The position numbers and the translations under genes were made by a program. A stretch of 64,000 nucleotides of DNA from an uncultured Gammaproteobacteria bacterium. GTDB lineage: Bacteria; Patescibacteriota; Microgenomatia; PFEM01; DATLAM01. Of this stretch, positions 8,941 through 40,213 are shown in pieces; position 1 is the stretch's first letter, and each line of letters begins with the position of its first letter. The DNA lies in the NCBI GenBank assembly GCA_964566925.1, contig CAZMIZ010000001.1, positions 135,248 to 199,247 on the forward strand, read 5' to 3'. The notes beneath the pieces are model-generated. The model was given only the letters and a program-made list of their open reading frames with translations, ran no database searches and was not told the DNA's origin.

Positions 8941-10382
8941 AAAAGTTTCTAAAATCTTATTGGCTTGTTTTTGTCTTTATCCTGGTTATTTTTCTCCGCC
9001 TGCCTTCATTGTTCGAACCTTTTACCTATGGTGATGAAGGAATTTATCTGACTTTAGGTCAGTCTTGGCGAAAAGGAGCCGTTTTCTATCGAGACATTCA
9101 CGATAACAAGCCACCCCTTTTATACCTCTTGGCTGGAGTTGCCTACAGCTTTGCTAATTATCGATTAATCCTTTTTTTCTGGAGCCTAATCACCGCCTAT
9201 TTCTTCTCCAAACTCGGCCGTTTCCTTTTTAAGAAAAACGGTTGGGCTGTTTTTTCTTCCACCCTTATTTTTGCTATTCTTAGCAGCATCCGCCTTTTTG
9301 AAGGTACTATTGCTAACGCCGAAAATTTTTTAATCGGAACCTCGATTCTTGGTTTCTATTTCCTCTTGACCGCTAAAAAGAATTATCAATTTTTTTTCGC
9401 CGGTCTTCTTTTTTCTCTTTCGACTCTTTTCAAAATCCCGGCGGCTTTTGATTTCGCTGCCGCCGTTACCTTTGGATTTTTGCTATTTATGCAAAACCGA
9501 AGAAATTATTCGCTATTCATTATTCGCTATTCATTATTCGCCCTGGGCTTTTTCCTCCCTATTCTCCTCTCGCTTCTCTACTATGCCTCTCAAAACGCTC
9601 TTAGCCAGTATTTAACCGCTGCTTTTTTTCAAAATATTCCTTACCTTGCCTCCTGGGCACCAGACAAGCCGCAGGCTGGAGGACTACCCATCCCTCTTCT
9701 TGGCCGAGCTCTTGGCATCTTGATTGTCTTTAGCCTTCTTTTTTCTTTAAGGAAAAGGCTTTCCTCTGCCGCCAAACTAACCACTCTCTGGTTTTCTTTT
9801 TCCCTTTTTGCCGCCCTTCTTTCCAGTCGCCCTTACCCTCATTATCTTCTCCAAACAATCCCGCCTTTAACTCTTTCTCTTGGTTTAATTTTGGCCAAAG
9901 AGAAGGAAAAAATTATTTCCCTCACAATGGTCGTCGTTCTCGTCTTCAGCATGGTCATTTTCAATTATTGGCATTACCCAACCGTTTCTTATCTTCAGAA
10001 CTTCTATTCGTTTGCTCTCAACTTAAAAACAAGAGATGACTATTTTGCTTATTTTGGTGGCCATACCCAAGATCTTTATCAGGTCGCCGCCTATCTTAAA
10101 ACCCACACCGAGGCCGAGGAGGAAATCTTTATTTGGAGTAACCATCCTTCGATTTACCCCCTCGCGGAGCGCTCTCCGGTTGGTCGCTATGCCACTGCCT
10201 ATCACATTATTGACTTTAACGGCTACGAGGAGACGATTAAAGCCCTCCAATCCTCTCTTCCTCGATATATTGTCCGCTCTCTGGAAGAAAAAAGAGCCTT
10301 TCCCTCTCTTGAGGCTCTGTTGGCCAACCAATACCTAAAAATAGAGACTGTCGGCCAGTTTGAGATTTACCGTCATCTTTGA
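8907..10382 (+). CDS. GT-C fold glycosyltransferase (ArnT/PMT-like), second paralogue
   Basis: TYGDEGIY ... NKPPLLYLL. Polytopic. Overlaps the previous gene by 34 nt. Confidence 0.7.
   Translation: MVFMAKKENNLKKFLKSYWLVFVFILVIFLRLPSLFEPFTYGDEGIYLTLGQSWRKGAVFYRDIHDNKPPLLYLLAGVAYSFANYRLILFFWSLITAYFFSKLGRFLFKKNGWAVFSSTLIFAILSSIRLFEGTIANAENFLIGTSILGFYFLLTAKKNYQFFFAGLLFSLSTLFKIPAAFDFAAAVTFGFLLFMQNRRNYSLFIIRYSLFALGFFLPILLSLLYYASQNALSQYLTAAFFQNIPYLASWAPDKPQAGGLPIPLLGRALGILIVFSLLFSLRKRLSSAAKLTTLWFSFSLFAALLSSRPYPHYLLQTIPPLTLSLGLILAKEKEKIISLTMVVVLVFSMVIFNYWHYPTVSYLQNFYSFALNLKTRDDYFAYFGGHTQDLYQVAAYLKTHTEAEEEIFIWSNHPSIYPLAERSPVGRYATAYHIIDFNGYEETIKALQSSLPRYIVRSLEEKRAFPSLEALLANQYLKIETVGQFEIYRHL
9507..9541 (+). 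repeat. 7-bp periodic tandem repeat (TATTCGC/TATTCAT x5) inside the GT-C gene
   Basis: Read directly from the sequence. Encodes the YSLFIIRYSLFAL peptide repeat. Confidence 0.8.
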
Positions 10383-10792
10383 ACCTAGGCTGTGGTATAA
10401 TTCGACTGATGGGAACCTTCCTTGACCAATTGACTGAAGAAAAAGGCAAGTTTAAGCTCTTAAGAGAGGACCGCCACCTCAATTTAAGCATCAGATTAAA
10501 TTTAATCTTTTTGGCTATCAGTTTTTTCTTTTTGATGCTTTTTTGGCAAAGACTGCCTCCCCGGGTGCCTCTTTTTTTCAGCCATCCCTGGGGAGAAAGC
10601 CAGCTGATTCCGCCCATCGGACTTTTTCTCCTACCTCTCCTCTGTCTTTTGGTTTGGGTCATCAACTTCTGTCTTCTCCTGAAAACTTTAAAAGAGGAAA
10701 AAATTCTTGCTTGGATTTTAGCGGGGACCAGCTTAACTTTTACTTTCCTTTGCCTTGTCGCTTTGTATCAGATTATTAGGCTTATTCTCTAA
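10379..10792 (+). CDS. small hydrophobic membrane protein (hypothetical)
   Basis: 137-aa ORF with three or four TM helices between the GT-C and WecA-like genes. Coding status uncertain. Confidence 0.35.
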   Translation: MNLGCGIIRLMGTFLDQLTEEKGKFKLLREDRHLNLSIRLNLIFLAISFFFLMLFWQRLPPRVPLFFSHPWGESQLIPPIGLFLLPLLCLLVWVINFCLLLKTLKEEKILAWILAGTSLTFTFLCLVALYQIIRLIL

Positions 10793-10799
10793 AACTAAA

Positions 10800-11906
10800 G
10801 TGATTTCTCTCGTCTTAATCAAAAAACTTATTGGTGAGCCTTTTCTGGCCGCCTTTATTATTTCCCTCCTGTCGACGCCTTTAACGATTAAGCTTGCCCG
10901 CCGTTTTCGCTTGGTTGACGACCCCGCCAACCGGCGTCATCCCGCCCATACCCATCAGGGAATTATTCCCCGAGCCGGAGGTCTCCCCATCTTTTTAAGC
11001 CTCACCTTTACCAGTCTTCTTTTCCTTCCTTTAGATAAACACTTAAAAGGGGTTCTCTTCGGAGCGGCTCTCCTGATCATTATCGGCCTTCTTGATGATC
11101 GCTTTGATTTAAACCCTTATCTTAGGCTTTTCACCTGTCTTCTCGCTGCCGGCATGGTGGTCGTCGCCGGCATTGGCATTGCTTTTATTAATAATCCCTT
11201 TAACGGCATCATTCATCTTGATCAACCTCAAATTTATTTTGAATTTTTAGGAAAAACTAGAAGCATTTGGGTGCTGGCTAGCTTTTTCGCCTTATTTTGG
11301 ATTGTCTGGATGGCTAATATCGTCAACTGGGCTAAGGGTTTCGACGGTCAGTTGCCGGGAATTGTCACCATCGCCGCCTTAACCATTGCCCTTTTGTCTT
11401 TCCGCTTTTCCGCTGACGTCACCCAATGGCCAGTGACCATTTTGGCCGCGATTACGGCTGGGGCTTATTTTGGTTTTTTACCTTTCAATTTTTATCCTCA
11501 AAAGATTATGCCTGGCTACGGCGGGGGAACCTTGGCCGGCTTCATGCTGGCTGTTCTTGCCATTCTTTCGACCACCAAAATTGGCACCGCCATCGTGGTT
11601 TTAGGGGTGCCGGTGATCGACGCGATTTATTCAATCGCCCGTCGACTGGCCGCCGGCCGCTCACCAGTTTGGGGCGACCGAGGCCATCTCCATCACAAAC
11701 TTTTAGACGAATGGCACTGGGGTAAACGTCGAACGGCCATTTTTTACTGGCTAGTGACCGCCCTTCTGGGAGCAGTGGCTTTAAGTTTGAATAGTCGCCA
11801 AAAATTTTATACAATCATTATGATCGCGGTAGCGATCGGAGGAGTTCTTTTGTGGTTAAACTTCTTTACAACCTGGCGCTCGCAGCCCGACCAAGACAGA
11901 CAATAA
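10800..11906 (+). CDS. polyprenyl-phosphate HexNAc-1-phosphate transferase (WecA/MraY family, GT4)
   Basis: RLVDDPANRRHPAHTHQGIIPRAGGLPIF and NIVNWAKGFDGQLPG are WecA/MraY-family motifs. The track ORF starts at 10755. An in-frame GTG at 10800 just after the upstream stop is the more likely start. Confidence 0.7.
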   Translation: MISLVLIKKLIGEPFLAAFIISLLSTPLTIKLARRFRLVDDPANRRHPAHTHQGIIPRAGGLPIFLSLTFTSLLFLPLDKHLKGVLFGAALLIIIGLLDDRFDLNPYLRLFTCLLAAGMVVVAGIGIAFINNPFNGIIHLDQPQIYFEFLGKTRSIWVLASFFALFWIVWMANIVNWAKGFDGQLPGIVTIAALTIALLSFRFSADVTQWPVTILAAITAGAYFGFLPFNFYPQKIMPGYGGGTLAGFMLAVLAILSTTKIGTAIVVLGVPVIDAIYSIARRLAAGRSPVWGDRGHLHHKLLDEWHWGKRRTAIFYWLVTALLGAVALSLNSRQKFYTIIMIAVAIGGVLLWLNFFTTWRSQPDQDRQ

Positions 11907-12784
11907 AAAATCTGGTTCTTTTTGCTGCTTTGATTTTCTCGGGCAACCTGCTGGTCACCGAAAAATTTTTAACCGTCGGTAAAGGTTTCCTTATTTTTTC
12001 TTTGCTCGCCTCCTCTAAATATATTTTTAATGATATTATTGATCTCCCTCTAGATCGACACCATCCCATCAAAAAGCACCGGCCAATTGCCACCGGTTCT
12101 CTGCCTATCCCCATTGCTCTTTTTGCTGTGATTGTTGGCGTTTTCACCAGCCTTTACTTGGCTGCCCAACTTTCTTTTTTCTTTTTTTTGACTTGCCTTG
12201 CCTATTTTCTGCTTCAACTAATTTACACTTTCTTTTTAAAGAACTTAGTTATTTTAGACGTTTTAGCCATTGCCGGCGGTTTTATCTTGCGGGTTTACGC
12301 CGGCGCTTTTGCGATCGATGTTCACCTTTCGGTTTGGTTCCTTCTTTGCCTTATTTCCCTTTCTCTTTTCCTGGCCGTAGGCAAGCGGCGAGCGGAATTA
12401 ACCATTCTTGCCTCCAGAAAAGCTCTTCACCCCAGAAAAACCCTGGCCTTTTATAAACCGGCTTTACTTGATTCTTATCTAGCCATGTTCGGCAATGCCG
12501 CCTGGCTTTCTTATGCTCTTTTTACCTTCTTCACCCCTAGCCCCCCAGTTGCCCAAAGATTTCCTTTCTGGGATCGGCTGCCCCTAACTCTGGCCGGGGT
12601 TAATAAATGGCTGATGTTAACCATTCCCATGGTTATTTTTGCCATTATGCGCTATATGCAAATCATCTATACTGGCTCAAAAGCCGAAGCTCCAGAAAAA
12701 GTCCTTTTGTCAGACAAATCACTCTTGACGGTAATCACTGTCTGGGGCATCATGGTAATTTTAATTATCTATGGCGTTAGATAA
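11852..12784 (+). CDS. UbiA-family prenyltransferase (decaprenyl-phosphate phosphoribosyltransferase-like)
   Basis: NDIIDLPLDRHHPIKKHRPIATG is the UbiA NDxxDxxxD signature. Eight or nine TM helices. N-terminal ARPRQTIKN. Confidence 0.7.
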   Translation: MVKLLYNLALAARPRQTIKNLVLFAALIFSGNLLVTEKFLTVGKGFLIFSLLASSKYIFNDIIDLPLDRHHPIKKHRPIATGSLPIPIALFAVIVGVFTSLYLAAQLSFFFFLTCLAYFLLQLIYTFFLKNLVILDVLAIAGGFILRVYAGAFAIDVHLSVWFLLCLISLSLFLAVGKRRAELTILASRKALHPRKTLAFYKPALLDSYLAMFGNAAWLSYALFTFFTPSPPVAQRFPFWDRLPLTLAGVNKWLMLTIPMVIFAIMRYMQIIYTGSKAEAPEKVLLSDKSLLTVITVWGIMVILIIYGVR

Positions 12785-13595
12785 AAACAAAAAGACTAGT
12801 CTGGCTGATATCAAAGCTCTCTATCAACCACCAGCCAATTCTCATAAAGGTCAAAACGGAAAACTAATCATCATCGGTGGCTCCCACCTTTTCCATGGGG
12901 CTTCGCTTTGGGCCTTGAAGGTGGCCAGTCGGATCGTGGACATGGTCTATTATTCTTCGATTCCCGAGAATCTTAAATTAACCCAAAAACTGAAAGCTAA
13001 TCTTTATGATTTTATTGGTGTGCCTAGAGAAGAGATTGAAGCCTATATCCAGGAGGCAGAAGCAATTCTTATTGGTCCGGGTTTAACCCGGGAAAAAGGA
13101 ACCAAGAGTTTAACAGAAAAGTTGATCAAAAAATTTCCTAAAAAGCAATGGGTGATTGATGCCGGCAGCCTCCAAATGATGTCTCAAAAATTGATTCCTA
13201 AAAACTCAATCCTTTTACCCCACAGAAAGGAATTCAAGCGGCTTTTTGGGGTTAAAGCTAATCCAGAAAACGCCGCCAAAATGGCTCAGAGATATGGTTG
13301 CGTCATTCTCCTGAAAGGCCCAACCGATTACATCTGTTCTTCTTCTAAATGTAAAATCAATCTCACTGGCAATGAAGGGATGACCAAAGGGGGAACCGGT
13401 GATGTTTTGGCGGGACTGGTGGCTGCTTTTGCTTGTAAAAACGATCCTTTTTTAGCCGCTTGCGCGGGGGCCTATATTAATGGCCTGGCTGGTGACCGAC
13501 TAAAAAAACGGGTGGGCATTTACTACAACGCCTCTGATTTAGCCGAAGAAATTCCAGCAACTTTAAAATGGTGCTTAGGTAATAAGAAGAACTAA
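12771..13595 (+). CDS. nnrD: ADP-dependent NAD(P)H-hydrate dehydratase (YjeF C-terminal domain)
   Basis: GKLIIIGGS ... ILIGPGL ... ILLKGPTDYI ... GNEGMTKGGTGDVLAGLVAAF. Confidence 0.75.
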   Translation: MALDKNKKTSLADIKALYQPPANSHKGQNGKLIIIGGSHLFHGASLWALKVASRIVDMVYYSSIPENLKLTQKLKANLYDFIGVPREEIEAYIQEAEAILIGPGLTREKGTKSLTEKLIKKFPKKQWVIDAGSLQMMSQKLIPKNSILLPHRKEFKRLFGVKANPENAAKMAQRYGCVILLKGPTDYICSSSKCKINLTGNEGMTKGGTGDVLAGLVAAFACKNDPFLAACAGAYINGLAGDRLKKRVGIYYNASDLAEEIPATLKWCLGNKKN

Positions 13596-13599
13596 GGAG

Positions 13600-14521
13600 C
13601 TACTCTACTAATTCTGAATAAACCCCGGAAACCCAACCTTCTTCTCCCTCTTCATATTCAATTTTATGCCAGCCACTTTCAGTTTTACCAAGATAAGGAT
13701 AGGTTTCGCCGGGATTAACCTTCGCTAGTTCAGTGGATTCATCATCAGTTGACGGTTCTTCTCTAACTCGCAACCAACCAGTAGGCGTCTCTTTGATGCG
13801 CACATAGGGCTTGTCAACCGAGGCAGTCGGGGTTGCCTCAGCCTTAGTTGTTGGTGTCGGGGTGGTTTCTTCCTCTTCAGCCTCTTCTTCCTCTTCTTTC
13901 TTTTCTGCGCTGGGTGTTGCCTCTTCCTCTTCCGTTCCTTCTTCCTCTTTAGCCAATTGAACTGCGACCGTCAATTTATAACCAGTAACCGTGTGCGCCG
14001 AAATAGATTTTTCTTGATAACCAGGAGCAGAAACAACCACCTGATAATCGCCAGCTGACAGATCTTCAATTAGAACCGGGGCAAACCCTTTTGGTTCTCC
14101 ATCAACTTTCACTACCGCCTGATCAGGAATAGAGATGACCTCTAAAGAAGCACTGTCTTTTTTGGCAATTTTTTCTAGAGATAATGTTTCGCCCGAAGAA
14201 GAGTCTTCGCTTGACCCAAGTGTTCGATTAATCACCGTTAATATATTAGCCACTAAAGTGACTTTACTTTCCCAGGAAACCAGCTGATCAGTGGTAGCTT
14301 CAGGGACGAGCTTAACCGTGTGTTCTCCAGGAGTGAGTTGATCATCAAAATAAGGTGTAATCCCCACACTGTTGCCATCCAGAAAAACCGTAGCCGTTGG
14401 GGTTGAGGAAATCTGAAGGGCGGCCGGGCCGCCTTGGTTAAGAAACTTTCCCCGAAAAATAAAAACGCCCAGAGCCAGGGCGAGAACAGCAACAATGGCA
14501 ATCAGCCAAGATTTCTTCATC
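13600..14521 (-). CDS. membrane-anchored PEGA-domain protein with acidic linker and C-terminal SH3b domain
   Basis: MKKSW start (the track ORF extends to 14601), one TM helix, PEGA-like ATVFLDGNSVGITPY, a Glu/Thr-rich low-complexity stretch, and a C-terminal GWLRVREEPS ... GWHKIEY SH3b-like domain. Confidence 0.55.
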
Positions 14522-14617
14522 AGGGATGAATGATACCATAAATTGTCAAAAAGGACAAGCATCTTATAGGGTAAAGGTTTTGCTTTTTTGAGGCCAGGCA
14601 TGATAAAATCAGAGTAA

Positions 14618-14689
14618 GGCCTGGTACTCGAGTAGCCCAGAGAGCTGTCTGCAAAACAGCTAACGCGGGTGCAAATCCCGCCCAGGCCT
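14618..14689 (+). tRNA. tRNA-Cys (anticodon GCA), candidate
   Basis: Hand-folded cloverleaf. 7-bp acceptor stem GGCCTGG/CCAGGCC. Anticodon stem GCTGT/ACAGC with loop CTGCAAA (U33, GCA at 34-36, A37). T arm GCGGG-TGCAAAT-CCCGC, 72 nt with discriminator T. Unusual G at position 55. No encoded CCA. Confidence 0.6.
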
Positions 14690-14706
14690 CAAAAAACTGA
14701 ACGTGC

Positions 14707-14735
14707 TTGACTTTTTGAGCCTAATTTGGTATACT
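14707..14735 (+). promoter_or_regulatory. sigma70-like promoter TTGACT-N17-TATACT upstream of the M23 peptidase gene
   Basis: Near-consensus hexamers with ideal spacing, 60 nt upstream of the ATG. Confidence 0.5.
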
Positions 14736-14743
14736 CTAGTCAA

Positions 14744-14763
14744 CCTATTGCAATTGCAATAGG
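14744..14763 (+). promoter_or_regulatory. perfect 20-bp palindrome CCTATTGCAATTGCAATAGG just downstream of the -10
   Basis: Exact self-complementarity read from the sequence. The position suggests an operator. Confidence 0.5.
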
Positions 14764-14797
14764 ATTTTTTATTTAGCGGGCTAAATTAACCCGCCAA

Positions 14798-15493
14798 ATG
14801 ACTACTTTAACCCTTTCGCTAGGAAGAAACCAAGTGTTGGTTTCTTTCGGCCGCAAATCGGGGCGACCCAAACGCACTCTTGCGGTTAAATTAGGCGAAA
14901 TCATTTCCTTTACTAAGAAGCTGGCCACCTCACGACGCTATGCTGGTCATCCGGTCAGTCGGGTTTTGCGTCGGGTTTTTGAGTTCCAAAAAATCAGGGG
15001 AATTCTAGGCTTAAACTTGGCTTTTATTGCTTTATTCTCTGGGGTTTTAATTCCCCCTATTTCGGCTCTGGATACTCAACCCGAAGAAGAAATCGTGGCT
15101 CTTTCTCCTGGTGAAACCCAGGTAATTACCCTGGAAGGGATTCAATCGCCTTTAAAGACTTTTAATGTCAGCCAGGGTTATAGTTTTTTTCACCCAGCCA
15201 TTGACCTTGATGAAGAGTTAGGCGCCGAAATTTACCCGATTATGAAGGGTCAAGTTGAAGATGTCTCCGAAGGCCGGTTTGGCTATGGAAAATCCATTCT
15301 AATTAACCATGGCAATAATCTGAAATCCTTTTATGCCCACCTCAACCAAATCAATGTTTACGAAGGTGAAGAAGTGAATATGGAGACTGTGATTGGGACT
15401 GTGGGTCGGACTGGTTGGGCAACTGGTACCCACCTTCACTTAGAGATCCGAGATAACGGCAAAAACATTAACCCTTTAACCTTGTTGCGCTGA
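14798..15493 (+). CDS. M23-family (LytM-like) peptidoglycan endopeptidase, membrane anchored
   Basis: HPAIDLD ... GWATGTHLHLEI, the classic HxxxD/HxH M23 motifs. N-terminal TM helix. Confidence 0.8.
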   Translation: MTTLTLSLGRNQVLVSFGRKSGRPKRTLAVKLGEIISFTKKLATSRRYAGHPVSRVLRRVFEFQKIRGILGLNLAFIALFSGVLIPPISALDTQPEEEIVALSPGETQVITLEGIQSPLKTFNVSQGYSFFHPAIDLDEELGAEIYPIMKGQVEDVSEGRFGYGKSILINHGNNLKSFYAHLNQINVYEGEEVNMETVIGTVGRTGWATGTHLHLEIRDNGKNINPLTLLR

Positions 15494-15535
15494 AGGGAAA
15501 AGCGCTAGTTTCAACACTAAGGTTTAAAGAGAATT

Positions 15536-15558
15536 AAAAAACCCGCTTCCGCGGGTTT
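15536..15558. terminator. bidirectional Rho-independent terminator between convergent genes
   Basis: AAAAAA-CCCGC-TTCC-GCGGG-TTT, a hairpin flanked by A and T tracts. Confidence 0.6.
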
Positions 15559-15587
15559 AATTTTGCGTTTTAAGTTTTAAGCCTCGC

Positions 15588-17231: not shown

Positions 17232-17256
17232 CCTTCGACTCCGCTCAGGATAAATT

Positions 17257-17574
17257 TTATTTAAGAACTGCTAGAACGTCCTCAAATTTAACAAAAACTA
17301 ATTCTTTCCCGGAAACATCAAATTTAACTTCATCCCCACCCCATTTTTTGAAAATTACCAGGTCGCCCACTTTAAATTCAGGCATCACTTTTCGGCCTGA
17401 ATCAGTAGTTTGGGGACCACCCAGGGCAATTACTTTTCCTTTTTGAGATTTTTCGTCATGAGTATCAGGAAGAACAATCCCGGCCGCGGTTTTTTTCTCT
17501 AAAGCCACCGGCTCCACCAAAGCATAACCGGCCGTTGGTTTCAATCTGGGTTTTATAGTTTTTGTTCGAGCCAT
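17257..17574 (-). CDS. groES: co-chaperonin GroES
   Basis: [12 protein letters not shown] ... GKVIALG is a typical GroES mobile loop and core. Confidence 0.9.
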
Positions 17575-17638
17575 CTTTTATTACAAAAAAAAGTTATACT
17601 TCGCAGTAACGCTCGTATAATTTTCGCTTTACTCAAAC

Positions 17639-17653: not shown

Positions 17654-17662
17654 ACGATTGCT

Positions 17663-17691: not shown

Positions 17692-17698
17692 GGCTGAA

Positions 17699-18346: not shown

Positions 18347-18349
18347 AAT

Positions 18350-18682: not shown

Positions 18683-18712
18683 GATTTGAGCTTCCTATTC
18701 TGCTTTCAATTC

Positions 18713-20624: not shown

Positions 20625-20855
20625 TTATCGCCCAATCCCTAATCTCTTCAATCTTTTTTGATACTCTGGTAAAACCCAGGTTCTGGCGTCTTGGGGATGG
20701 AAACGGAGCCGGCCTTTCTCAACCACTTCAGTGGTTCTTTTTTTGGCCATATATTTAAGCTGCACCCAACAAGCTAGGGCTTCCAGTTTGGCAAGTATTG
20801 CTTGACCCATTGATTCGCCTTTAAAAACTTTGGGTAGGTTCCGTCTTTTTCCCAT
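20625..20855 (-). CDS. hypothetical ORF overlapping the 3' end of the NTase gene (possible frameshifted continuation)
   Basis: 76-aa ORF in a different frame that overlaps 20774-20855. Confidence 0.25.
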   Translation of the reverse strand: MGKRRNLPKVFKGESMGQAILAKLEALACWVQLKYMAKKRTTEVVEKGRLRFHPQDARTWVLPEYQKRLKRLGIGR

Positions 20856-21424
20856 AAAACTTTCATTTGACCAACTTCGTGGGCAGAAAAAAGATCCCGT
20901 TCTTTCTTAGGAATGGCCAAATGAACCTCGTCTAAGAACATATTCAAACAAATTTTATCTCTTGCTTTTTGGTCGCCTGGTCGGCGGCGGGAGGCAACCA
21001 CTTCAATTAATAAAACCGCTAGCAATCTCGTTAACCAAAGCCGATTTTTAGTAGTCACGATCATTAAATCAATGTCATCTTCCTTATCTGTGTTGGCCAT
21101 GGCCAGAGCGCCTGTGACGGCCACCATTTTGATGGTCGGAATAAACTTCAGCCAATTGGCAACCCGCTGGCCAATCTTTAATTTTTCCCGGCTCCAGCGG
21201 GCCCGCTTTTGACGAAGAGAAACCAACCTCCTTCTTCCTCTTAGATAATAATAGCCTTCCTTTTTAGCAGTTCGGGGAAGTTTCTCTAATGCTTTTTCGA
21301 TATCCGATATCCGATATCCGATATCCGAAAGAAGAAATTGCCAGATTTCTTCTTTTTTCAACGGATAATCAAAAACATCAGCATAGGCAAGAGTGCGAAA
21401 AATTGCCTTTGATAAGGGCTTCAT
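20774..21424 (-). CDS. Pol-beta-superfamily nucleotidyltransferase-domain protein
   Basis: GALAMANTDKEDDIDLMIV fits the hG[GS]x9-13DhD NTase motif. Confidence 0.5.
   Translation of the reverse strand: MKPLSKAIFRTLAYADVFDYPLKKEEIWQFLLSDIGYRISDIEKALEKLPRTAKKEGYYYLRGRRRLVSLRQKRARWSREKLKIGQRVANWLKFIPTIKMVAVTGALAMANTDKEDDIDLMIVTTKNRLWLTRLLAVLLIEVVASRRRPGDQKARDKICLNMFLDEVHLAIPKKERDLFSAHEVGQMKVLWEKDGTYPKFLKANQWVKQYLPNWKP
21301..21328. repeat. heptanucleotide tandem repeat (TATCCGA)x4 inside the NTase-like CDS
   Basis: cgaTATCCGATATCCGATATCCGATATCCGAaag read directly. Confidence 0.85.
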
Positions 21425-32294: not shown

Positions 32295-32296
32295 GG

Positions 32297-34316: not shown

Positions 34317-37194
34317 CCCTGAAGACCAGATCTCGGTTTAAAATTGGGTTGAAAAACAAAGTCTGTTGAGCTAGATTAGCTGATGGATAAGCCTTAAGAG
34401 GAGTGACGCTCGAGGGATAATTCAGCCAAAAATTAAAAGAATCTTGACTGCTACCAGATTGTCTTTGGATTAAAAGAAGATAGGTTGTTTTTGTCCTTGT
34501 CCAATCCATTTTCTTCCCAAGCTGATAGGTCACTTGAACTTTTTTCTTTTCTTTGATCGGCACCTCCACTAAAAATCCAAAAATCGTCTTTCCACTACTT
34601 TCTTTGACGTCAATCTTTTTCTCCCCTAGCGGCCTACCGTCAAAAGCCACTTGTTTAAGAATGGTCTCTTTAGGTAAATAGAGGCGAAGATAGTTTTTAT
34701 ATTGACCGGCGGGGAAATTTTCTGAAGGACTTTCGTTTTGATAAATAATTTGTAATGTCGCCTCAACTGTTCCGTCATCGGCAAGATTGACTTTATGGGT
34801 TAATTCTCTTTTAACAAAATAATTAACCTTGTTGACCCCAAAATTTGTTTCAACGATCATCAAATAATCGGCGAAGCAGGTTGTCTCTGGAATCTGGCAT
34901 TTAACCTCTTTGATCCCGCCATCCCATCCTAATTGACCCATTGTTTCGGCGGCTTTCTGATCGTGGAGATAGACCAAAAGATCTTTCTCGGAAAGACTGT
35001 TATAAACAGCCTTCCCAAGAAGGTACCAGTCAGACCTATGGCTATTTCTTACTCGGTCAAATAGAATCCGGGTGAGACTACCTAGAAAATCCTCTTTTTG
35101 GGTTGACCCCGGGAAAAAACCGACTTCTGCTTGATATTGGGCTCGTTCAAAAAAATTAACAGCGTTAATTTTTTCTTGATAATCTGGCAACTCTACTTCA
35201 CCGGCCACCTCTAAGATTTTACGAGCAAAATCGAGGTTAACCGCCAGGACACCGTCAACCGAACGACCAATTTCTTTTTCTAAAAACCACTCTGCTTTAA
35301 TCGCGCTGGTAGGAAAATCTGGATCAAAATTACTGTCCCGCAAATACCAGCCGGCTTCGCCTAAATATTTTTTAATTTCCGGGGGCGGCTCAACGTGACC
35401 TTTTAGTTGACCGTCAGCCGTGTAGACGTTCTGAACTTCAAAATCAATAAAATGGCCGTTTTCAAAAGTGACGAGAGCAAAAGAGCCAATAAAACCTCCG
35501 GTAGGCCGAAGTTCCATGTTATTTTGAAAAAGAACTAAATAAGTCCGCTTCTCTCTGACAGCAATCAATTCCGGTAGAATCTCTATGCCCTCTCTGGCTT
35601 CCAAGATCAGCGACCTTAATTGAGAAATTCGGCCTGTCAAATCTGCCTCTATTTGATTTAAACCTAAAAGATCTCTAAATAAGGAGTCCACCGGCGCCTT
35701 TTCAAGCCCTGCTTGGATTTGAGAAAGATCGGCGTAAGCCAAGTCAAGTTCGGTTTTAATCTGGCCGGTTAACTTTTGGGTTTCGCCTTCTTGATTCTGA
35801 AAAATAATCGCTGCCACCTCTTCTCCTGCTTGAGCCGCTAGCCCACCATGGTGAATTGCTCCGGCTAAGTTTTGACCAATCCCTAAATCTCTTTCGGCAC
35901 TAATTTTGACTCCCTCAAGACCAATCAGGTCAAAAAACCATTCAAACTGGTCAATTCTTTTTCGGGCCCGAGTAAACGAATTTTGAGCAGAACTCGAATA
36001 ATCAAGGCCTCGCTCCGATTGGGCCGAAAGGAGAGCTTCCTCGGCTTGCTTCAACCGACGAACTCCCCAAAGACAATCAAAACCTAAACTTAAAAGCGGA
36101 CAGGAGAGGACGGTTAAAATTAGAAAAAAAGCGCCAAAGACCATTAGCCAGGATGGGTGAAATCTGGTCGATTTTATCTCCTTCTTCGGTTTAGGAAGTT
36201 TTTCAATCGCTGGCGTTTTCGTTTTCGCCTTCTTCAAAAAAGAAGCCAGAGTTTTCTCGATCCCCTCCTTCAATTCTACTTTCGGTTGCCAGCCAAGAAA
36301 TTTTTGAGAAGTCAAAAACTTTTCTTTTTCCAGAGGAAATTTTTCTTCGTTATCTCCAGGGACAAATTCAATCGAAAGTGAGCCTGATGATTGCTTCTGA
36401 AGTTCGTGAGCAAAAAAAAGGAGGGTTGTTTCCTTTATATCAGCTAAAGAAAAAATCCGGCCGCTAGACCCAGAAATAAACATTGCCCGCAGAAGACCTT
36501 CAACGATATCAGTTACAAAGGTGGGGTGGTATTGAATTTTTCCTTTCCCGGGAATTTTTAGAGGACCGCCAGCCAACACTTCTTTAATTAAGCTAACAAT
36601 TTTTGTTCCCGCCCCTAAGTTCATTCTTGGCCCATAAACTTGACCAAGACGAACAATCCGAGCATCAACTTGATATTTTTTGGAATATTCAAAGACCAGA
36701 TTTTCGGCAAACCGCTTGGCTTCATGATAACTAAACTGTCCTTGATAGTCCTTAAAACTTAAACCAGGAAGGGCGGCCGAATAAATATCAAAGGAGGAGA
36801 TCAGAAGAAACTTTGCTTTATCTTGACGGGCCAACTCCAGAAGGTTGGTTGTCCCGGCCGCATTTACTTTAAGAAGGTTGAGGGAGGTATCTTCTTGACC
36901 GAAGTAAGCCTCAATTCCGGCTAAATGAAACAGATAGTCAATTTTTGGCAACCTTTTTTCCAGGGGCTTAGTCAGGTCGTGCTTAATAAAAGTGAAGTTT
37001 TGGTGATGATAACACTTAGCCAAATTCTCTTTTTTCCCGGTGAGAAGATTATCAAGACAAATTACTTGACATCGCTGGGTTAACAGCGATTCACAAAGAT
37101 AAGAACCGATAAAGCCGGCGCCGCCGGCCACCAAACAAACTGGTTTTTGAGAAGAAGAATCCAGTTGATGAAAAGGTGAAACCTTCTTTTTCAT
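34300..37194 (-). CDS. NAD-dependent sugar epimerase/dehydratase (extended SDR) fused to TM segment and large extracytoplasmic domain
   Basis: N-terminal VAGGAGFIGSYL Rossmann motif, a UDP-sugar epimerase/decarboxylase-like domain of about 320 aa, one TM helix, then about 600 aa of unknown domain. Confidence 0.6.
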   Translation of the reverse strand: MKKKVSPFHQLDSSSQKPVCLVAGGAGFIGSYLCESLLTQRCQVICLDNLLTGKKENLAKCYHHQNFTFIKHDLTKPLEKRLPKIDYLFHLAGIEAYFGQEDTSLNLLKVNAAGTTNLLELARQDKAKFLLISSFDIYSAALPGLSFKDYQGQFSYHEAKRFAENLVFEYSKKYQVDARIVRLGQVYGPRMNLGAGTKIVSLIKEVLAGGPLKIPGKGKIQYHPTFVTDIVEGLLRAMFISGSSGRIFSLADIKETTLLFFAHELQKQSSGSLSIEFVPGDNEEKFPLEKEKFLTSQKFLGWQPKVELKEGIEKTLASFLKKAKTKTPAIEKLPKPKKEIKSTRFHPSWLMVFGAFFLILTVLSCPLLSLGFDCLWGVRRLKQAEEALLSAQSERGLDYSSSAQNSFTRARKRIDQFEWFFDLIGLEGVKISAERDLGIGQNLAGAIHHGGLAAQAGEEVAAIIFQNQEGETQKLTGQIKTELDLAYADLSQIQAGLEKAPVDSLFRDLLGLNQIEADLTGRISQLRSLILEAREGIEILPELIAVREKRTYLVLFQNNMELRPTGGFIGSFALVTFENGHFIDFEVQNVYTADGQLKGHVEPPPEIKKYLGEAGWYLRDSNFDPDFPTSAIKAEWFLEKEIGRSVDGVLAVNLDFARKILEVAGEVELPDYQEKINAVNFFERAQYQAEVGFFPGSTQKEDFLGSLTRILFDRVRNSHRSDWYLLGKAVYNSLSEKDLLVYLHDQKAAETMGQLGWDGGIKEVKCQIPETTCFADYLMIVETNFGVNKVNYFVKRELTHKVNLADDGTVEATLQIIYQNESPSENFPAGQYKNYLRLYLPKETILKQVAFDGRPLGEKKIDVKESSGKTIFGFLVEVPIKEKKKVQVTYQLGKKMDWTRTKTTYLLLIQRQSGSSQDSFNFWLNYPSSVTPLKAYPSANLAQQTLFFNPILNRDLVFRVDFAK

Positions 37195-37306
37195 TAGGGC
37201 AGTCTTCCAAGACTCATCTTACCCTAAACGACTGGTTGTTTCAACCAAAGACCGATAGTAATTAATTATAAACATGAAAAGGAAAACAGTGGAGAAAAGG
37301 TGGATA

Positions 37307-37732
37307 TTAAGACAAAAATCGTTGGTCTAAAATTTCGTTAACTAATCGGTCGGCCTCCAGATTTTTTTCCCTTTTAATAAACTGGTAAACAACATTGCCG
37401 CCAATCATTTGTTCCAGCTGCCGAACTTCGATCACTAAACCTCTTAGATTCTCGTTCTTAATCTTAAAAAGGCCGTTGAGTTGATTGACTACCAAGCGAG
37501 AGTCAAGAAAGAAAGTGACCGCTGACCATTGATGACGGAAGGCCGAGGGCTGACTGAGCCACTTTAAAGCTTCAATCACGGCTTGATATTCGGCCACGTT
37601 GTTGGTAGTTTGACCAATAAACTTTCCCTTCTCTTTCAGGATTTTCCCTGAGCTGTCTTTAATAACAAAACCGATGGCGGCTGGGCCCGGATTGCCTCTG
37701 GCGCCCCCGTCACAAAAAACATCAAGTTGCAT
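37307..37732 (-). CDS. rnhA: ribonuclease HI
   Basis: CDGGARGNPGPAAIG and TTNNVAEYQAVIEAL. Confidence 0.8.
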   Translation of the reverse strand: MQLDVFCDGGARGNPGPAAIGFVIKDSSGKILKEKGKFIGQTTNNVAEYQAVIEALKWLSQPSAFRHQWSAVTFFLDSRLVVNQLNGLFKIKNENLRGLVIEVRQLEQMIGGNVVYQFIKREKNLEADRLVNEILDQRFLS

Positions 37733-38987
37733 AGCACCTCCAAAATAAAAGAATCAGAACAGCGGTTTCCGTGATCCCGGTATTAACCGCCGCCGCTAAA
37801 ACCCCAAACTGGGGGATAAAAATCAGATTTAAGACCAGGTTAATTACCAAACCGGCTCCGTAAATAAAGACCAACGACCGTTGTTGGTTTCTTAAAATTA
37901 AGTCCCACATCAAAAGAGCAGAAAGAAAAAAGAGTGGTAAAGACAAAAACAAAATTCGCAAAACCGAAACCGAAAGCGGCAGGTCTTGACCAGCAATGAT
38001 TTTAATTATCAACGGGCTGGCTGGAATTCCAATGAACATTCCCAAGAAAGAGGCCACTAAAAGGACCAACAGGGCTTTTTTAAAAACGCGCTGATATCGG
38101 TTTCGGTTTTGATCAGCTCTCGCCATGACCGGGTAAACAGCGTTCATAAAAAAAACAGGAAAAACTAAAGAGAGGTCAAAAACTTTATAGGCAGTTTCGT
38201 AAAAACCCAACTCCTGAAGGGAGCGAAGAACAGGAATCAGAAATTTATCAATCTTGAAATAGGCAAGGTTGAAAATTAAAGTCAATCCCAAGGGGGCGGT
38301 TAAGAAAAGGAGATCTTTGAAGATCTTTAGTTTAAAGACAAACCTCAGCTGAGGTAATTGCCTTTTAGCTAAAATCAGAGCGGTTAAGGCCAGGACTAAA
38401 GACCCAAGAGTGATCGCGACCACCAGAGACAAAAGAGAATAACCAAACCAAAGAAAAAAGCCAGCCAAGAAAAGGGTCGTTAGGCTGCTAATACCTAGGG
38501 CCACCATTGACTGATCATAGCGAAGGTTAAATTGGAAAATGGCGTTGGTTGAAGTCACCATTGCTTGGGCGAAGATGGTCATGGCTGCCAAAAGAATTCC
38601 TATTCTAATAGTCGGCTGGCTGTAAGGAGAAGGAAGAATAAGGAGAAGAAAGAGAGAAAAAATAATTAAACCAAGAGAAATCAAAAAGCGAAGAGAAAAA
38701 AGAGAGGAAAAAAACAAAGAGCGCCGCTCTTTGTTTTTAGCGGCCTCCCTGATCACGATGGCGTTAAAGCCGAAGTCCGCCAACAAATAAAAATAGGCTA
38801 CATAAGTAAGAATGGCTGTTAATTTACCAAAGTCTTCCACCCCGAAATAGCGAATCGTCACCATGGTGATGATGAGCATTGTCCCAGCGGAAAAAATTTT
38901 CCCTAAAATTTGGGCGAAGGTGTTAAGAGCGACTTTCTGCGAGAGTTTCATTTTTTCATTGTAGCACTTTATTGACGATTCGCCCAT
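37722..38987 (-). CDS. polysaccharide/oligosaccharide flippase (Wzx/MOP superfamily)
   Basis: About 12 TM helices. The N-terminus LNTFAQILGKIFSAGTMLIITMVTIRYFG is typical of Wzx-like transporters. Confidence 0.6.
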   Translation of the reverse strand: MGESSIKCYNEKMKLSQKVALNTFAQILGKIFSAGTMLIITMVTIRYFGVEDFGKLTAILTYVAYFYLLADFGFNAIVIREAAKNKERRSLFFSSLFSLRFLISLGLIIFSLFLLLILPSPYSQPTIRIGILLAAMTIFAQAMVTSTNAIFQFNLRYDQSMVALGISSLTTLFLAGFFLWFGYSLLSLVVAITLGSLVLALTALILAKRQLPQLRFVFKLKIFKDLLFLTAPLGLTLIFNLAYFKIDKFLIPVLRSLQELGFYETAYKVFDLSLVFPVFFMNAVYPVMARADQNRNRYQRVFKKALLVLLVASFLGMFIGIPASPLIIKIIAGQDLPLSVSVLRILFLSLPLFFLSALLMWDLILRNQQRSLVFIYGAGLVINLVLNLIFIPQFGVLAAAVNTGITETAVLILLFWRCYAT

Positions 38988-40213
38988 GAGAGTCCCAAAA
39001 CTATCGTCAATAATAATTGGGTTTGTTGGAGAGTTAGCCAGTAATGATCCACCATGCCTGTTAAGAAAATCGCTAGAAGAGAAATTGCCAGTTGCCAGTT
39101 GCCAGTTGCCAATAGTTTTTTAAAAGTTAAAATTAGAAGCCAAACAAAAATAACTAAACCAACTAGGCCGGTTTCGGCAAGAATTAAAAGGAAAATGTTG
39201 TGAACCGGCTGGAGAAAACGAATCGTTTCTGGTGCTGGCCAATAATAGGATAGCTGAGAGATAAAATTATTCAAACCAACGCCGGTCAGCAGTTGTGGTT
39301 GGACCATCAAGCTGGCCACTTTGGTTGATTGAAACCTTAAATTAAAAGTCTCTTCAGTTGAGAGTTTTGGACCCCAATAGAAAACTCCGCCAAGCAGGGT
39401 CAATAAGAAAACCAAAAAGATCCCCTGGCGAAATCTCTTCTTCTTTTTCCAGAGGCGAAGAACAACCAACAGAAGAATGATTAATAAGCCAACCACCCAG
39501 GTCGAACGAGAAAAGGAAATGGCGATTGCCGCTCCCCCGAAACCAATAGTCAACCATTTTAAAATCTTCCTGCTTGTTAATTCCCTTTTTGGCATTCCCA
39601 TTAAGGCTAGGGAAACCAGGATAAATCCAGCTAAAGCATTCGGGTGAGGAAAAGTAGCATAGGGCCTCATTAAGAGTTGGCCATTAACGATTGCCTTGGC
39701 AATTCCGGGAGTAGCAACGTTAAAGGTCCGCTCCCCCAACCACCAAAAAGAGCCGTTCAAAGATGATTGGTTAATGAATTGAGCTATTGCCAGAAAGGAG
39801 GTGTAAATAATCGGGAAGGGCAATATCTGGCGTAGAGCGGATGGCGTATAGCTATTTTTAGCAACATAAAGGCCCAGAAAGAAGAGCTCGATTATTTTAA
39901 TGAATTTATAAAGGGCGGCACCGGAATTCTGAGCTAAAAGCGAAGTGGTCAGCAAATAAAAAAGGATCGCTCCTACCCACCAAAATTTCCGAATTGTTAA
40001 TTGTAAATTGTTAATTGTCAGCTCGTTTAGCTTCTCTAAAAACCAGGAAACTAAAATTAATCCCACTAAAATATCCGTTAAGTAAAGGGTGGGTGAAAGA
40101 TAATCGATTTTTAATCCTAAAACGTAAGACCATTCTGGCCAGAAGTGACGTCCTAATTGAACAGGAAGAAGAATGATTAAAGCGTAAAAAAACGCTTGAT
40201 GAAGCTTTTTCAT
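38969..40213 (-). CDS. O-antigen ligase/polymerase-family membrane protein (Wzy_C domain)
   Basis: Polytopic, with an FSRSTWVVGLLIILLL-type O-antigen ligase core and a large periplasmic loop. Confidence 0.6.
   Translation of the reverse strand: MKKLHQAFFYALIILLPVQLGRHFWPEWSYVLGLKIDYLSPTLYLTDILVGLILVSWFLEKLNELTINNLQLTIRKFWWVGAILFYLLTTSLLAQNSGAALYKFIKIIELFFLGLYVAKNSYTPSALRQILPFPIIYTSFLAIAQFINQSSLNGSFWWLGERTFNVATPGIAKAIVNGQLLMRPYATFPHPNALAGFILVSLALMGMPKRELTSRKILKWLTIGFGGAAIAISFSRSTWVVGLLIILLLVVLRLWKKKKRFRQGIFLVFLLTLLGGVFYWGPKLSTEETFNLRFQSTKVASLMVQPQLLTGVGLNNFISQLSYYWPAPETIRFLQPVHNIFLLILAETGLVGLVIFVWLLILTFKKLLATGNWQLAISLLAIFLTGMVDHYWLTLQQTQLLLTIVLGLSWANRQ
39085..39111. repeat. heptanucleotide tandem repeat (TTGCCAG)x3.9 inside the O-antigen ligase-like CDS
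   Basis: Read directly. A second 13-14-bp repeat, aattgttaattgt x2, lies near 39990-40020 in the same gene. Confidence 0.85.

What the first reader, a model, noticed from the sequence alone, without database searches (positions are those of the whole stretch)
9507..39111. Heptanucleotide tandem repeats inside three genes, two of them surface-glycan genes: candidate phase-variable contingency loci
A 7-bp tandem repeat occurs in the second GT-C gene (9507-9541, 5 units), the NTase-like gene (21301-21328, 4 units) and the O-antigen-ligase-like gene (39085-39111, about 4 units). A repeat unit length that is not a multiple of three means slipped-strand copy-number change would shift the reading frame. 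Two of the three loci make envelope polysaccharide, which is the classic target of phase variation.
Basis: seen in the sequence. Interest (0 to 1): 0.55.

Follow-up and report, generated by a model that had tools for sequence, protein, structure and literature searches.

The report
Slippage-prone heptanucleotide repeats inside CPR genes
The three 7-base repeats are real and can knock genes out by losing a unit, as seen in related bacteria, but they belong to a lineage-wide class of short coding repeats that also sits in essential genes, so they are not proven dedicated surface-variation switches.

Summary
Perfect tandem arrays lie at 21298-21328 (CGATATC x4.4) and 39085-39111 (TTGCCAG x3.9). 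The array at 9505-9541 is really a 14-nt unit x2.6, two alternating heptamer variants. All are far beyond chance.

The organism is a Shapirobacteria-like Microgenomates (CPR) bacterium. In its relatives, heptamer arrays of 3 or more copies are about 36 times denser than in other phyla. Most lie inside ORFs and none exceeds about 5 units.

All three window sites carry homologous "five-slot" arrays in orthologs, in frame. Their unit sequences have changed in concert, for example TCGGATA against TCGAATA in every unit.

The same arrays occur in essential genes (ValRS, TsaD, TopA). Copy number is invariant in most comparisons.

I found two natural slippage alleles on otherwise 100% identical DNA. 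One is -7 nt in an orthologous Wzy_C gene. The other is -14 nt at the site orthologous to the window's NTase-like repeat. Both split the gene.

Verdict: these are slippage-prone coding microsatellites that can switch genes off at low frequency. Adaptive contingency-locus status is unproven. The window's own strain could not be tested.

The parts
21298..21328 (-). rpt2: perfect heptanucleotide array, (TCGGATA)x4.4 on the coding strand, encoding SDIGYRISDIE (codons 33-43 of 216). It occupies five 7-nt slots between ..TTTCTT and AAAA..
   Evidence: Orthologous five-slot arrays with other units.
20774..21424 (-). Host gene of rpt2: a 216-aa protein conserved in Microgenomates, weakly nucleotidyltransferase-like.
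   Evidence: Pfam Polbeta E=0.0064, below cut-off. Homologs are 67-68% identical; JGI names them 'predicted nucleotidyltransferase' and UniRef 'Polymerase nucleotidyl transferase domain-containing protein'.
39085..39111 (-). rpt3: perfect array, (CAACTGG)x3 plus partial flanking slots on the coding strand, encoding ATGNWQLA (codons ~366-375 of 414).
   Evidence: Orthologous arrays in L081 and L174.
39992..40018 (-). Degenerate heptamer array in the same gene (coding strand CAATTAA CAATTTA CAATTAA CAATTCG, peptide LTINNLQLTIRK, codons ~64-75).
   Evidence: period 7, 90%; period 14, 100%. Homologous arrays: L174 (5 units) and L081 (CAATTTC x4.7).
38969..40213 (-). Host gene of rpt3: a 414-aa O-antigen-ligase-like (Wzy_C) membrane protein. 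It overlaps the start of a Polysacc_synt flippase gene (37722-38987).
   Evidence: Pfam Wzy_C E=2.3e-14. Orthologs are 50-61% identical.
9505..9541 (+). rpt1: perfect 14-nt unit x2.6, that is five heptamer slots alternating ATTATTC/GCTATTC, encoding YSLFIIRYSLFA (codons ~200-212 of 491).
   Evidence: Orthologous arrays: L171 (TCATTAT-type) and L173 (ACGCTAG-type).
8907..10382 (+). Host gene of rpt1: a 491-aa polytopic membrane protein of the ArnT/PMT-like (GT-C) kind. The database copy starts at the ATG three codons in (488 aa).
   Evidence: homolog names 'ArnT family glycosyltransferase'; precomputed PF13231 and PF02366 in some homologs. The upstream paralogous neighbour 7648-8940 hits PMT_2. 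The protein itself has no Pfam or NCBIfam hit.
55032..55063 (.). Intergenic five-slot heptamer array (CTATGGA CTATGCG CTATGGA CTATGAT ACTATCT) between divergent genes. It belongs to the same repeat class but is outside coding sequence.
3738..3770 (.). Intergenic 14-nt x2.4 array (GATATTGGxTACTA), immediately 5' of the RmuC-family gene 2756-3736(-).
53071..53118 (.). Imperfect AATTTCT-type array (about 5-7 slots with indels) directly upstream of gene 52181-53062(-).

Best explanation
The three repeats are slippage-prone coding microsatellites of a class that is common in this bacterium's lineage (Shapirobacteria-like Microgenomates, CPR).

Each array fills about five 7-nt slots in a sequence-variable, indel-tolerant stretch of the protein.

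Slipped-strand mispairing adds or removes whole units. Any change that is not a multiple of three units shifts the frame. The predicted products are 43-55 aa for the NTase-like gene, 226-241 aa for the GT-C gene, and 377-384 aa for the Wzy_C gene. In the other shifted frame, the Wzy_C ORF fuses in frame to the downstream flippase ORF.

Such alleles do arise in natural populations of relatives. They are rare and short-lived, so purifying selection keeps nearly all genomes at the in-frame five-slot state.

Over longer times, unit turnover homogenises each array, which shows up as concerted evolution.

The arrays therefore behave as weak, potentially reversible OFF switches for dispensable genes. 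Their presence is most simply a by-product of a lineage-wide mutational bias toward 7-nt tandem duplication, not a dedicated adaptation of surface-glycan genes.

Shown: the arrays exist, the class is lineage-wide, the concerted changes occur, the arrays sit in essential genes, and two natural unit-loss frameshift alleles exist in orthologs.

Inferred: that the window's own arrays slip, that OFF alleles revert, and that the origin is mutational rather than selected.
For: - Arrays are real and beyond chance.
- The class is lineage-wide. Perfect heptamer arrays of 3 or more copies number 20 in 659 kb of non-redundant clade DNA, against 1 in 1.19 Mb of other phyla. Periods 5, 6 and 8-12 are almost absent at that copy number.
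- 65 of 72 non-redundant arrays lie inside ORFs of at least 100 aa, and none exceeds 5.1 units.
- At the rpt2 site, orthologs carry in-register five-slot arrays with different units: TCGGATA (window), TCGAATA (L090, L131, L170), TCCAATT (L095), ATCAATT (L097), GAATTCA (L136) and AAATCTC (L104, L120-122). All are in frame.
- The window and L090 are about 84% identical in DNA, yet all four units differ by the same G/A change.
- The same pattern holds at the rpt1 site and at both Wzy_C sites.
- There is a three-unit in-frame loss in L093 relative to L095.
- Arrays occur in TsaD (four in L126), ValRS (x4.9), TopA (x5.0) and ATP-dependent DNA ligase.
- An 8-mer array sits at the same site as 7-mer arrays (L134), and 7- and 8-mer arrays share one TsaD loop. 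This indicates recurrent origin at permissive sites.
- Natural slippage alleles: L187 against L177 shows 5336 nt, 0 mismatches and one 7-nt gap in the (TACTGTC) array, with Wzy_C split into 284+111 aa. L189 against L101 shows 2755 nt, 0 mismatches and one 14-nt gap in the rpt2-site array, with the gene called as 170 aa.
Against: - No second assembly or reads of the window's species were available, so slippage at these three arrays is extrapolated from orthologs.
- Both variant alleles are contractions in MEGAHIT-style (k141) contigs of one ENA series. Repeat collapse by the assembler cannot be excluded, although sister assemblies of the same series keep the full arrays.
- Simple slippage does not explain why 7 nt is so strongly preferred over 4, 5 and 8-12 nt.
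- It also does not explain how in-frame arrays become established in essential genes, where single-unit intermediates should be lethal.
- The persistence of arrays at the same sites across lineages could instead reflect selection for mutability.
Confidence: 0.6

Rival explanations
1. These are true contingency loci. On this view the arrays in the GT-C, NTase-like and Wzy_C genes are maintained by selection for mutability. They would switch envelope-glycan functions ON and OFF at high frequency, for example to escape phage or to change host attachment.
For: - The unit is not a multiple of three and the arrays are perfectly homogeneous.
- Arrays persist at the same sites across lineages with concerted unit change.
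- Frame-shifting periods (7, 8) are enriched while 6- and 9-nt arrays are nearly absent in the clade.
- Two natural OFF alleles were found, in an orthologous Wzy_C gene and at the orthologous NTase-like site, on zero-divergence backgrounds.
- Three contigs end at or inside arrays (L105, L160, L188).
Against: - Equally long and perfect arrays occur in ValRS, TsaD and TopA, and shorter ones (x2.7-2.9) in DNA ligase.
- There are only about 4-5 units and never more.
- OFF alleles are rare: about 1 of 50 or more contigs for Wzy_C of the P0013 species, 1 of 12 for the P0202 species and 0 of 80 NTase-like loci. For neuO, 65.6% are OFF and copies range 3-53.
- Ten strains at 99.2-99.9% identity show no array change.
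- rpt3 lies near the 3' end and rpt1 mid-gene, not in the 5' region.
Confidence: 0.25
2. These are inert relics. The arrays would be fossils of past 7-nt duplications that no longer change at a meaningful rate, and the two variant contigs would be assembly artefacts.
For: - Copy number is identical at 20 of 22 array sites seen in two or more loci and in 10 strains of one species.
- All 80 NTase-like loci are in frame.
- Both variants are contractions from one assembly series.
Against: - Concerted unit changes between lineages require repeated unit turnover.
- Arrays remain perfect although the surrounding DNA has diverged by about 16% or more.
- Sister assemblies made the same way keep the full arrays.
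- Arrays of 27-36 nt are far shorter than the final k-mer of 141, so collapse is not expected.
Confidence: 0.1
3. A lineage-specific, length-neutral homogenising process is at work. Examples would be out-of-register pairing with mismatch correction, or an unknown enzyme with a 7-8-nt step. It would 'paint' a local heptamer over about 35 nt without changing length, which would explain arrays in essential genes and the constant five slots.
For: - There is no length difference between array-bearing and array-poor orthologs at the three window sites.
- Intergenic arrays also have about five slots.
- The specificity for 7 nt, and to a lesser extent 8 nt, is strong.
- Units containing AATT or CAATT are over-represented: 9 of 29 against 8% background, and 6 of 29 against 3%.
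Against: - No enzyme or precedent was identified.
- In TsaD and ValRS the arrays coincide with loop insertions of 4-9 aa relative to the window's proteins.
- Real length changes of -7, -14 and -21 nt are observed.
- The AATT enrichment is confounded by homologous sites.
Confidence: 0.1

Closest known systems
neuO of E. coli K1 (CUS-3 prophage O-acetyltransferase), a coding heptanucleotide (AAGACTC)n phase-variation switch
   Same: It has a heptanucleotide tandem repeat inside the ORF of a surface-glycan-modifying gene. Slippage changes the frame, and the protein is full length only when the unit number fits the frame (PMC13001214).
   Different: neuO carries 3-53 units (mode 20), and 65.6% of 64 genomes are OFF. 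Here there are 4-5 units, almost all genomes are in frame, and only two OFF alleles were found in relatives. neuO is a single mobile cargo gene, whereas here the arrays are scattered over many chromosomal genes, including essential ones.
Classical SSR contingency loci of Haemophilus, Neisseria and Campylobacter (1-5-nt units, plus the heptanucleotide repeats tied to HMW1A phase variation)
   Same: The proposed mechanism is the same: slipped-strand mispairing at a simple repeat, giving reversible loss of expression of envelope functions (papers listed).
   Different: From general knowledge, those tracts are long, highly polymorphic between strains, concentrated in surface and restriction-modification genes, and found in host-adapted pathogens. 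Here the tracts are short, mostly invariant and not restricted to such genes, in an uncultured groundwater-type CPR lineage.
Over-represented heptameric SSRs of Xanthomonas (GGGAATC) and Nostoc or Calothrix (GGGGAYT; STRR), and TAACTGA repeats of Beggiatoaceae
   Same: Heptamer is the favoured SSR unit genome-wide, and about four units is the preferred copy number (PMC4692102; PMC4679880).
   Different: [quoted passage not shown] G-quadruplex or RNA-level roles are proposed for them. Here every array has its own locally derived unit, and about 90% lie inside ORFs.
Concerted evolution of tandem repeats (general principle)
   Same: Units within a lineage are identical while they differ between lineages. 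One example is TCGGATA against TCGAATA in all four units.
   Different: Copy number stays fixed at five slots across lineages, presumably because of reading-frame and protein-length constraint. In typical microsatellites it drifts.

Membership tests
SSR-mediated phase-variable contingency locus (neuO-type coding repeat) | Tandem repeat with a unit length not divisible by 3, located inside the ORF | tested here: met
   The 7-nt (and 14-nt) arrays lie inside three long ORFs.
SSR-mediated phase-variable contingency locus (neuO-type coding repeat) | Gain or loss of one unit abolishes the full-length product, and a compensating change restores it | tested here: met
   In-silico +/-1 or 2 units gives 43-55 aa (NTase-like), 226-241 aa (GT-C), and 377-384 aa or a read-through fusion (Wzy_C). 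A change of +/-3 units restores the frame.
SSR-mediated phase-variable contingency locus (neuO-type coding repeat) | Copy number differs between closely related strains, or within a population | tested here: inconclusive
   The window's species has no second assembly on record. In relatives, two unit-loss alleles sit on 100% identical backgrounds. However, 20 of 22 shared array sites and 10 strains of one species are invariant.
SSR-mediated phase-variable contingency locus (neuO-type coding repeat) | Long tract with a wide range of unit numbers and a large fraction of OFF genotypes among genomes | tested here: not met
   The maximum is 5.1 units in 40 non-redundant arrays. None of 80 NTase-like loci is frameshifted. 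OFF alleles run at roughly 2-8% where seen, against 3-53 units and 65.6% OFF for neuO.
SSR-mediated phase-variable contingency locus (neuO-type coding repeat) | Repeats concentrated in dispensable surface or contingency genes rather than essential housekeeping genes | tested here: not met
   Equivalent perfect arrays occur in ValRS, TsaD and TopA of relatives, with shorter ones (x2.7-2.9) in ATP-dependent DNA ligase.
SSR-mediated phase-variable contingency locus (neuO-type coding repeat) | High-frequency, reversible switching measured in a population | not testable with these tools
   This needs raw reads or cultures, and neither was available.
Genome-wide consensus heptamer repeats (STRR, Xanthomonas GGGAATC type) | One shared unit sequence across the genome, with a mainly intergenic location | tested here: not met
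   There are 29 distinct units among 40 arrays, and 65 of 72 arrays are inside ORFs.
O-antigen ligase / Wzy_C family (host gene of rpt3) | Significant match to the Wzy_C domain in a polytopic membrane protein | tested here: met
   PF04932 gives E=2.3e-14 and 53.9 bits against a cut-off of 31.7. No substrate or ligase activity was tested.

The most novel reading that the evidence does not exclude
Microgenomates (CPR) genomes carry a previously undescribed class of coding heptanucleotide microsatellites. Each has about five slots and a locally derived unit, sits at a conserved position across species, and is homogenised in concert. These arrays would act as low-frequency reversible frameshift switches for dispensable envelope genes. 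This would be the first evidence of SSR-mediated phase variation in candidate phyla radiation bacteria. It would also imply a lineage-specific replication or repair property that favours 7-nt slippage.
Probability: 0.3. Interest if true: 0.75.

Novelty: new variant of a known kind. Interest (0 to 1): 0.6.

Why it matters
CPR bacteria are tiny, mostly uncultured episymbionts, and their cell-surface glycans probably govern host attachment and phage susceptibility. I found no report of phase variation or of coding microsatellites in them.

Suppose these arrays do toggle envelope genes. Population heterogeneity of CPR surfaces would then be readable directly from metagenomic reads at defined loci.

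There is also a separate point. A strong lineage-specific excess of 7-nt coding repeats extends even into essential genes. That excess marks an unusual replication or repair regime. It also warns annotators that split genes at such arrays may be natural alleles rather than errors.

Tried and rejected
- Exact look-ups of the window's own three proteins found no contig, so the strain's heterogeneity could not be tested. Their 90% clusters are single-member clusters on one 297,704-bp contig.
- P0211, a 182-aa NTase-like homolog, looked like an OFF allele. Its truncation comes from a 13-nt deletion elsewhere in the gene, with the array intact.
- The apparent frameshift in L131 is a 16-nt duplicated stretch that contains Ns, which is a scaffolding artefact.
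- The truncated cluster members P0381, P0441, P0444 and P0437 do not begin or end at array sites.
- I checked whether the units are palindromic or restriction-site-like. On inspection only short 4-6-nt palindromes occur, so I dropped the idea.
- An AATT/CAATT core is enriched among units. The sample contains homologous sites, so I treat this only as a lead.
- The genome-contig scan with ValRS found relatives only up to 61% identity. L001 and L002, 40 kb together, contain no heptamer arrays.
- Literature searches found nothing on SSRs or phase variation in CPR.
Full report
**Observation**

Reading the three places directly, and running Tandem Repeats Finder and an exact-run scan, confirms the repeats.
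- 21298-21328 is CGATATC x4.4, perfect.
- 39085-39111 is TTGCCAG x3.9, perfect.
- 9505-9541 is a perfect 14-nt unit (ATTATTCGCTATTC) x2.6, that is five heptamer slots alternating two variants. As a 7-mer it matches only 71%.

These are the only perfect arrays of at least 2.5 copies with a unit of 7 nt or more in the window.

TRF reports 11 period-7 and 6 period-14 rows, against 1.3 and 0.4 in dinucleotide-preserving shuffles. No shuffled period-7 or period-14 array scored above 49, against 62, 54 and 74 here.

**Host genes and organism**

The arrays are in frame inside three ORFs:
- 8907-10382(+), 491 aa;
- 20774-21424(-), 216 aa;
- 38969-40213(-), 414 aa.

The third is a Wzy_C (O-antigen-ligase-like) protein (E=2.3e-14). 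The second has only a sub-threshold Polbeta nucleotidyltransferase hit. The first has no Pfam or NCBIfam hit of its own, but its homologs are named ArnT-family glycosyltransferases and its upstream paralog hits PMT_2.

Homolog names place the organism among Candidatus Shapirobacteria / Microgenomates (CPR). Its own proteins form single-member clusters on one 297,704-bp contig. The nearest relatives are only 58-69% identical. The nearest ValRS in the species-representative genome set is 59-61% identical.

The window also contains dnaA and dnaN at the GC-skew minimum, as well as many envelope genes.

**A lineage-wide class, not three special loci**

A metagenome scan with the NTase-like family returned 80 related loci. 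The counts of perfect arrays with at least 12 matched positions were as follows:

| Data set | Period 7 | Period 14 | Period 16 | Period 8 | Other periods |
|---|---|---|---|---|---|
| Clade loci, 677 kb | 36 | 13 | 12 | 8 | 0-5 each |
| Other phyla, 1.19 Mb | 6 | 7 | 2 | 2 | multiples of three dominate (period 15: 25; 18: 19; 12: 14) |

After removing redundancy (659 kb including the window), the counts of arrays with 3 or more copies were as follows:

| Period | Arrays of 3 or more copies |
|---|---|
| 7 | 20 |
| 8 | 2 |
| 6 | 1 |
| 5 | 2 |
| 9-12 | 0 |

Period 4 gives 20 arrays of 3-3.9 copies, close to the 13.6 expected from shuffles, and none longer. Heptamer copy numbers are distributed 383 / 7 / 11 / 2 for 2-2.9, 3-3.9, 4-4.9 and 5 or more copies. 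The control set holds a single heptamer array of 3 or more copies.

Sixty-five of 72 non-redundant arrays lie inside ORFs of at least 100 aa. The rest sit in short intergenic spacers and do not interrupt genes. No array exceeds 36 nt, or 5.1 units.

**The same sites carry arrays in orthologs, with different units**

Protein alignments show no length difference at any of the three window sites. At the DNA level, the rpt2 site is a five-slot array in register in many lineages, always directly after ..TTTCTT/TTTCTA and before an A-run:

| Locus | Slots |
|---|---|
| window | CTTTCGG ATATCGG ATATCGG ATATCGG ATATCGA |
| L090 | CTTTCGA ATATCGA x4 |
| L091 | CTTTCAG ATATTAG ATATCAG ATATTAG |
| L095 | ATTTCCA x5 |
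| L097 | ATTATCA x4 |
| L101 | ATTTCCA AAATCCA AATTCCA AAATCCA AATTCCA |
| L136 | TCAGAAT x4 |
| L104, L120-122 | TCTCAAA x3 |

The window and L090 share about 84% DNA identity, yet all four units differ by the same G/A change. Together with the ABAB patterns, this is the signature of unit turnover, or concerted evolution.

The rpt1 site carries TCATTAT-type units in L171 and ACGCTAG-type units in L173. The two Wzy_C sites carry CAATTAA/CAATTTA, CAATTTC, CAACTGG, (A/C)AATTGG and CAATTAA/TAATTTA units in the window, L081 and L174.

On a neighbour-joining ordering, arrays at the rpt2 site are concentrated in the window's subclade but also occur in distant branches. L134 has an 8-mer array at the same site. 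L093 has lost exactly three units (21 nt, in frame) relative to L095.

**Arrays in essential genes**

Pfam annotation of array-rich ORFs in the related loci gave the following:
- TsaD: four arrays in L126, 8-mers in L134 and a 16-mer in L122;
- valyl-tRNA synthetase: L143, ACTTTGA x4.9 plus a second array;
- topoisomerase I: L146, CAAATCT x5.0;
- ATP-dependent DNA ligase: L148;
- VanW, DUF4012 and TPR proteins.

In TsaD and ValRS the arrays coincide with lineage-specific loop insertions of 4-9 aa relative to the window's proteins. Seven- and eight-nt arrays share one TsaD loop.

From established knowledge, ValRS, TsaD and TopA are essential in bacteria, so their arrays cannot be ON/OFF switches. 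Having a perfect heptamer array is therefore not in itself evidence of a contingency locus. Shared sites are at least partly explained by recurrent origin in permissive loops.

**Is copy number variable?**

Mostly it is not.
- All 80 NTase-like loci give single-frame tblastn matches, apart from contig-edge truncations and one N-containing scaffold artefact.
- Ten contigs of one Shapirobacteria species from ten samples (99.2-99.9% identical) have identical lengths and sequences at all seven arrays. Their real indels lie elsewhere, as 96-nt and 33-nt in-frame differences in a DUF4012 gene.
- Of 22 array sites seen in two or more loci, 20 are invariant.

However, truncated members of 90% protein clusters led to two genuine exceptions.
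- L187 (ENA ERZ27293391) matches L177 over 5336 nt with 0 mismatches and one 7-nt gap. The (TACTGTC) array in the Wzy_C ortholog has 2.9 instead of 3.9 units, and the gene is split into 284 and 111 aa.
- L189 (ENA ERZ27293400) matches L101 over 2755 nt with 0 mismatches and one 14-nt gap, inside the array at the site orthologous to the window's rpt2. The gene is called as a 170-aa remnant.

Both arrays have the size and architecture of the window's rpt3 (27 nt, x3.9) and rpt1 (14-mer x2.6). A unit indel as the only difference on a mismatch-free background is what a mutational hot spot predicts.

It is also what an assembler collapse would look like. Against collapse, the arrays are far shorter than the final k-mer, and sister assemblies of the same series keep them intact.

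Three contigs end at or in arrays (L105, L160, L188), which is only weakly suggestive.

From contig counts, OFF alleles are about 1 of 50 or more (Wzy_C, P0013 species) and 1 of 12 (NTase-like, P0202 species).

**Consequences in the window**

| Array | Result of +/-1 or 2 units | Wild type |
|---|---|---|
| rpt2 | 43-55 aa | 216 aa |
| rpt1 | 226-241 aa | 491 aa |
| rpt3, -1 or +2 | 377-384 aa, losing the invariant DHYWLTLQQ block | 414 aa |
| rpt3, +1 or -2 | reads on in the frame of the downstream flippase ORF | 414 aa |

A change of +/-3 units restores the frame, with 7 aa more or fewer.

**Mechanism and rivals**

The best-supported reading is that these are slippage-prone coding microsatellites of a lineage-wide class. 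Purifying selection holds them at the in-frame five-slot state, and unit turnover homogenises them. They occasionally produce frameshift nulls in dispensable genes.

It is weakened by four findings:
- the essential-gene arrays;
- the low unit number;
- the rarity of OFF alleles;
- the invariance among strains.

For comparison, neuO, the textbook coding heptanucleotide switch, has 3-53 units and 65.6% OFF genotypes among 64 genomes (PMC13001214).

Two points remain unexplained: why 7 nt is so strongly preferred, and how in-frame arrays arise in essential genes. A possible simple account, which is inference only, is that 7-8 nt is where the supply of chance two-copy proto-repeats and the stability of a one-unit misalignment multiply to a maximum in a repair-poor genome. 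A length-neutral homogenising process is an alternative that I could not test.

**Relation to known work**

[quoted passage not shown] It has been studied for Xanthomonas and Nostoc, where one consensus unit is repeated mostly between genes, with a preference for four units (PMC4692102).

The present arrays differ. They are coding, each has its own local unit, they are conserved in position across species, and they occur in CPR. I found no report of SSRs or phase variation in CPR.

I therefore rate this a new variant of a known kind.

**Limits**

The window's own strain could not be examined at read level. The two variant alleles come from one assembly series. Frequencies are rough contig counts. 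Essentiality is inferred from general knowledge, not tested in these organisms.

Noticed in passing
window 42127-45439: dnaA (42666-44111) and dnaN (44315-45439) coincide with the minimum of the cumulative GC skew at about 42-44 kb. The window therefore probably spans the chromosomal replication origin.
   Followed up: partly
window 39085-39111 and 37722-38987: Adding one unit to rpt3, or removing two, puts the Wzy_C ORF into the frame of the overlapping downstream Polysacc_synt flippase gene with no intervening stop. That predicts a Wzy-flippase fusion rather than a simple truncation.
   Followed up: partly
window 3738-3770, 15556-15581, 53071-53118, 55032-55063: Heptamer or 14-mer arrays of about 4-7 slots also lie in intergenic spacers. 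Three are directly upstream of gene starts or between divergent genes, and one is just after a terminator-like hairpin. They might affect promoter or 5'-UTR spacing.
   Followed up: partly
L177-L186 (about 13223-13313 and 14268-14299 in L177 coordinates): The DUF4012 gene next to the Wzy_C/flippase/RNase H cluster varies among strains of one species (843, 832 and 811 aa; 834 and 802 aa). The 811- and 832-aa forms trace to in-frame indels of about 96 nt and 33 nt that are not heptamer arrays.
   Followed up: partly
clade loci, 29 distinct units: Array units containing AATT (9 of 29 against 8% background) or CAATT (6 of 29 against 3%) are over-represented. The same CAATTxx unit family occurs at two different sites of one Wzy_C gene (L174). 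The signal is confounded by homologous sites.
   Followed up: partly
L105:1-30, L160:1-30, L188:1-40: Three metagenome contigs begin inside or within 8 nt of a heptamer array. This could reflect assembly-graph breaks caused by copy-number heterogeneity.
   Followed up: no
L170:600-640 (P0211): An NTase-like ortholog with an intact (TCGAATA)x4 array carries a 13-nt deletion elsewhere in the gene that truncates it to 182 aa. It is either a pseudogene or an assembly error, and it is unrelated to the repeat.
   Followed up: yes
L130, L145, L148, L150, L151, L154, L158 (3' extension of ~310-aa NTase-like variants): A second recurrent array site lies in or beside the NTase-like ORF of several loci. 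It carries 8-nt or 16-nt units of the CAATTTCT type, another frame-shifting period. In L151 it sits in the C-terminal extension.
   Followed up: no
L001, L002: The closest ValRS relatives in the species-representative genome set (59-61% identity) are labelled 'uncultured Gammaproteobacteria' MAGs, and they carry no heptamer arrays in 40 kb. The label looks doubtful, and the array phenomenon may be confined to a subclade.
   Followed up: no
window 46533-52177: A 1227-aa protein with a C-terminal M23 peptidase domain lies next to a TraG/VirB4-like P-loop ATPase. The same pair is conserved next to dnaN in the P0013 species (L177).
   Followed up: no
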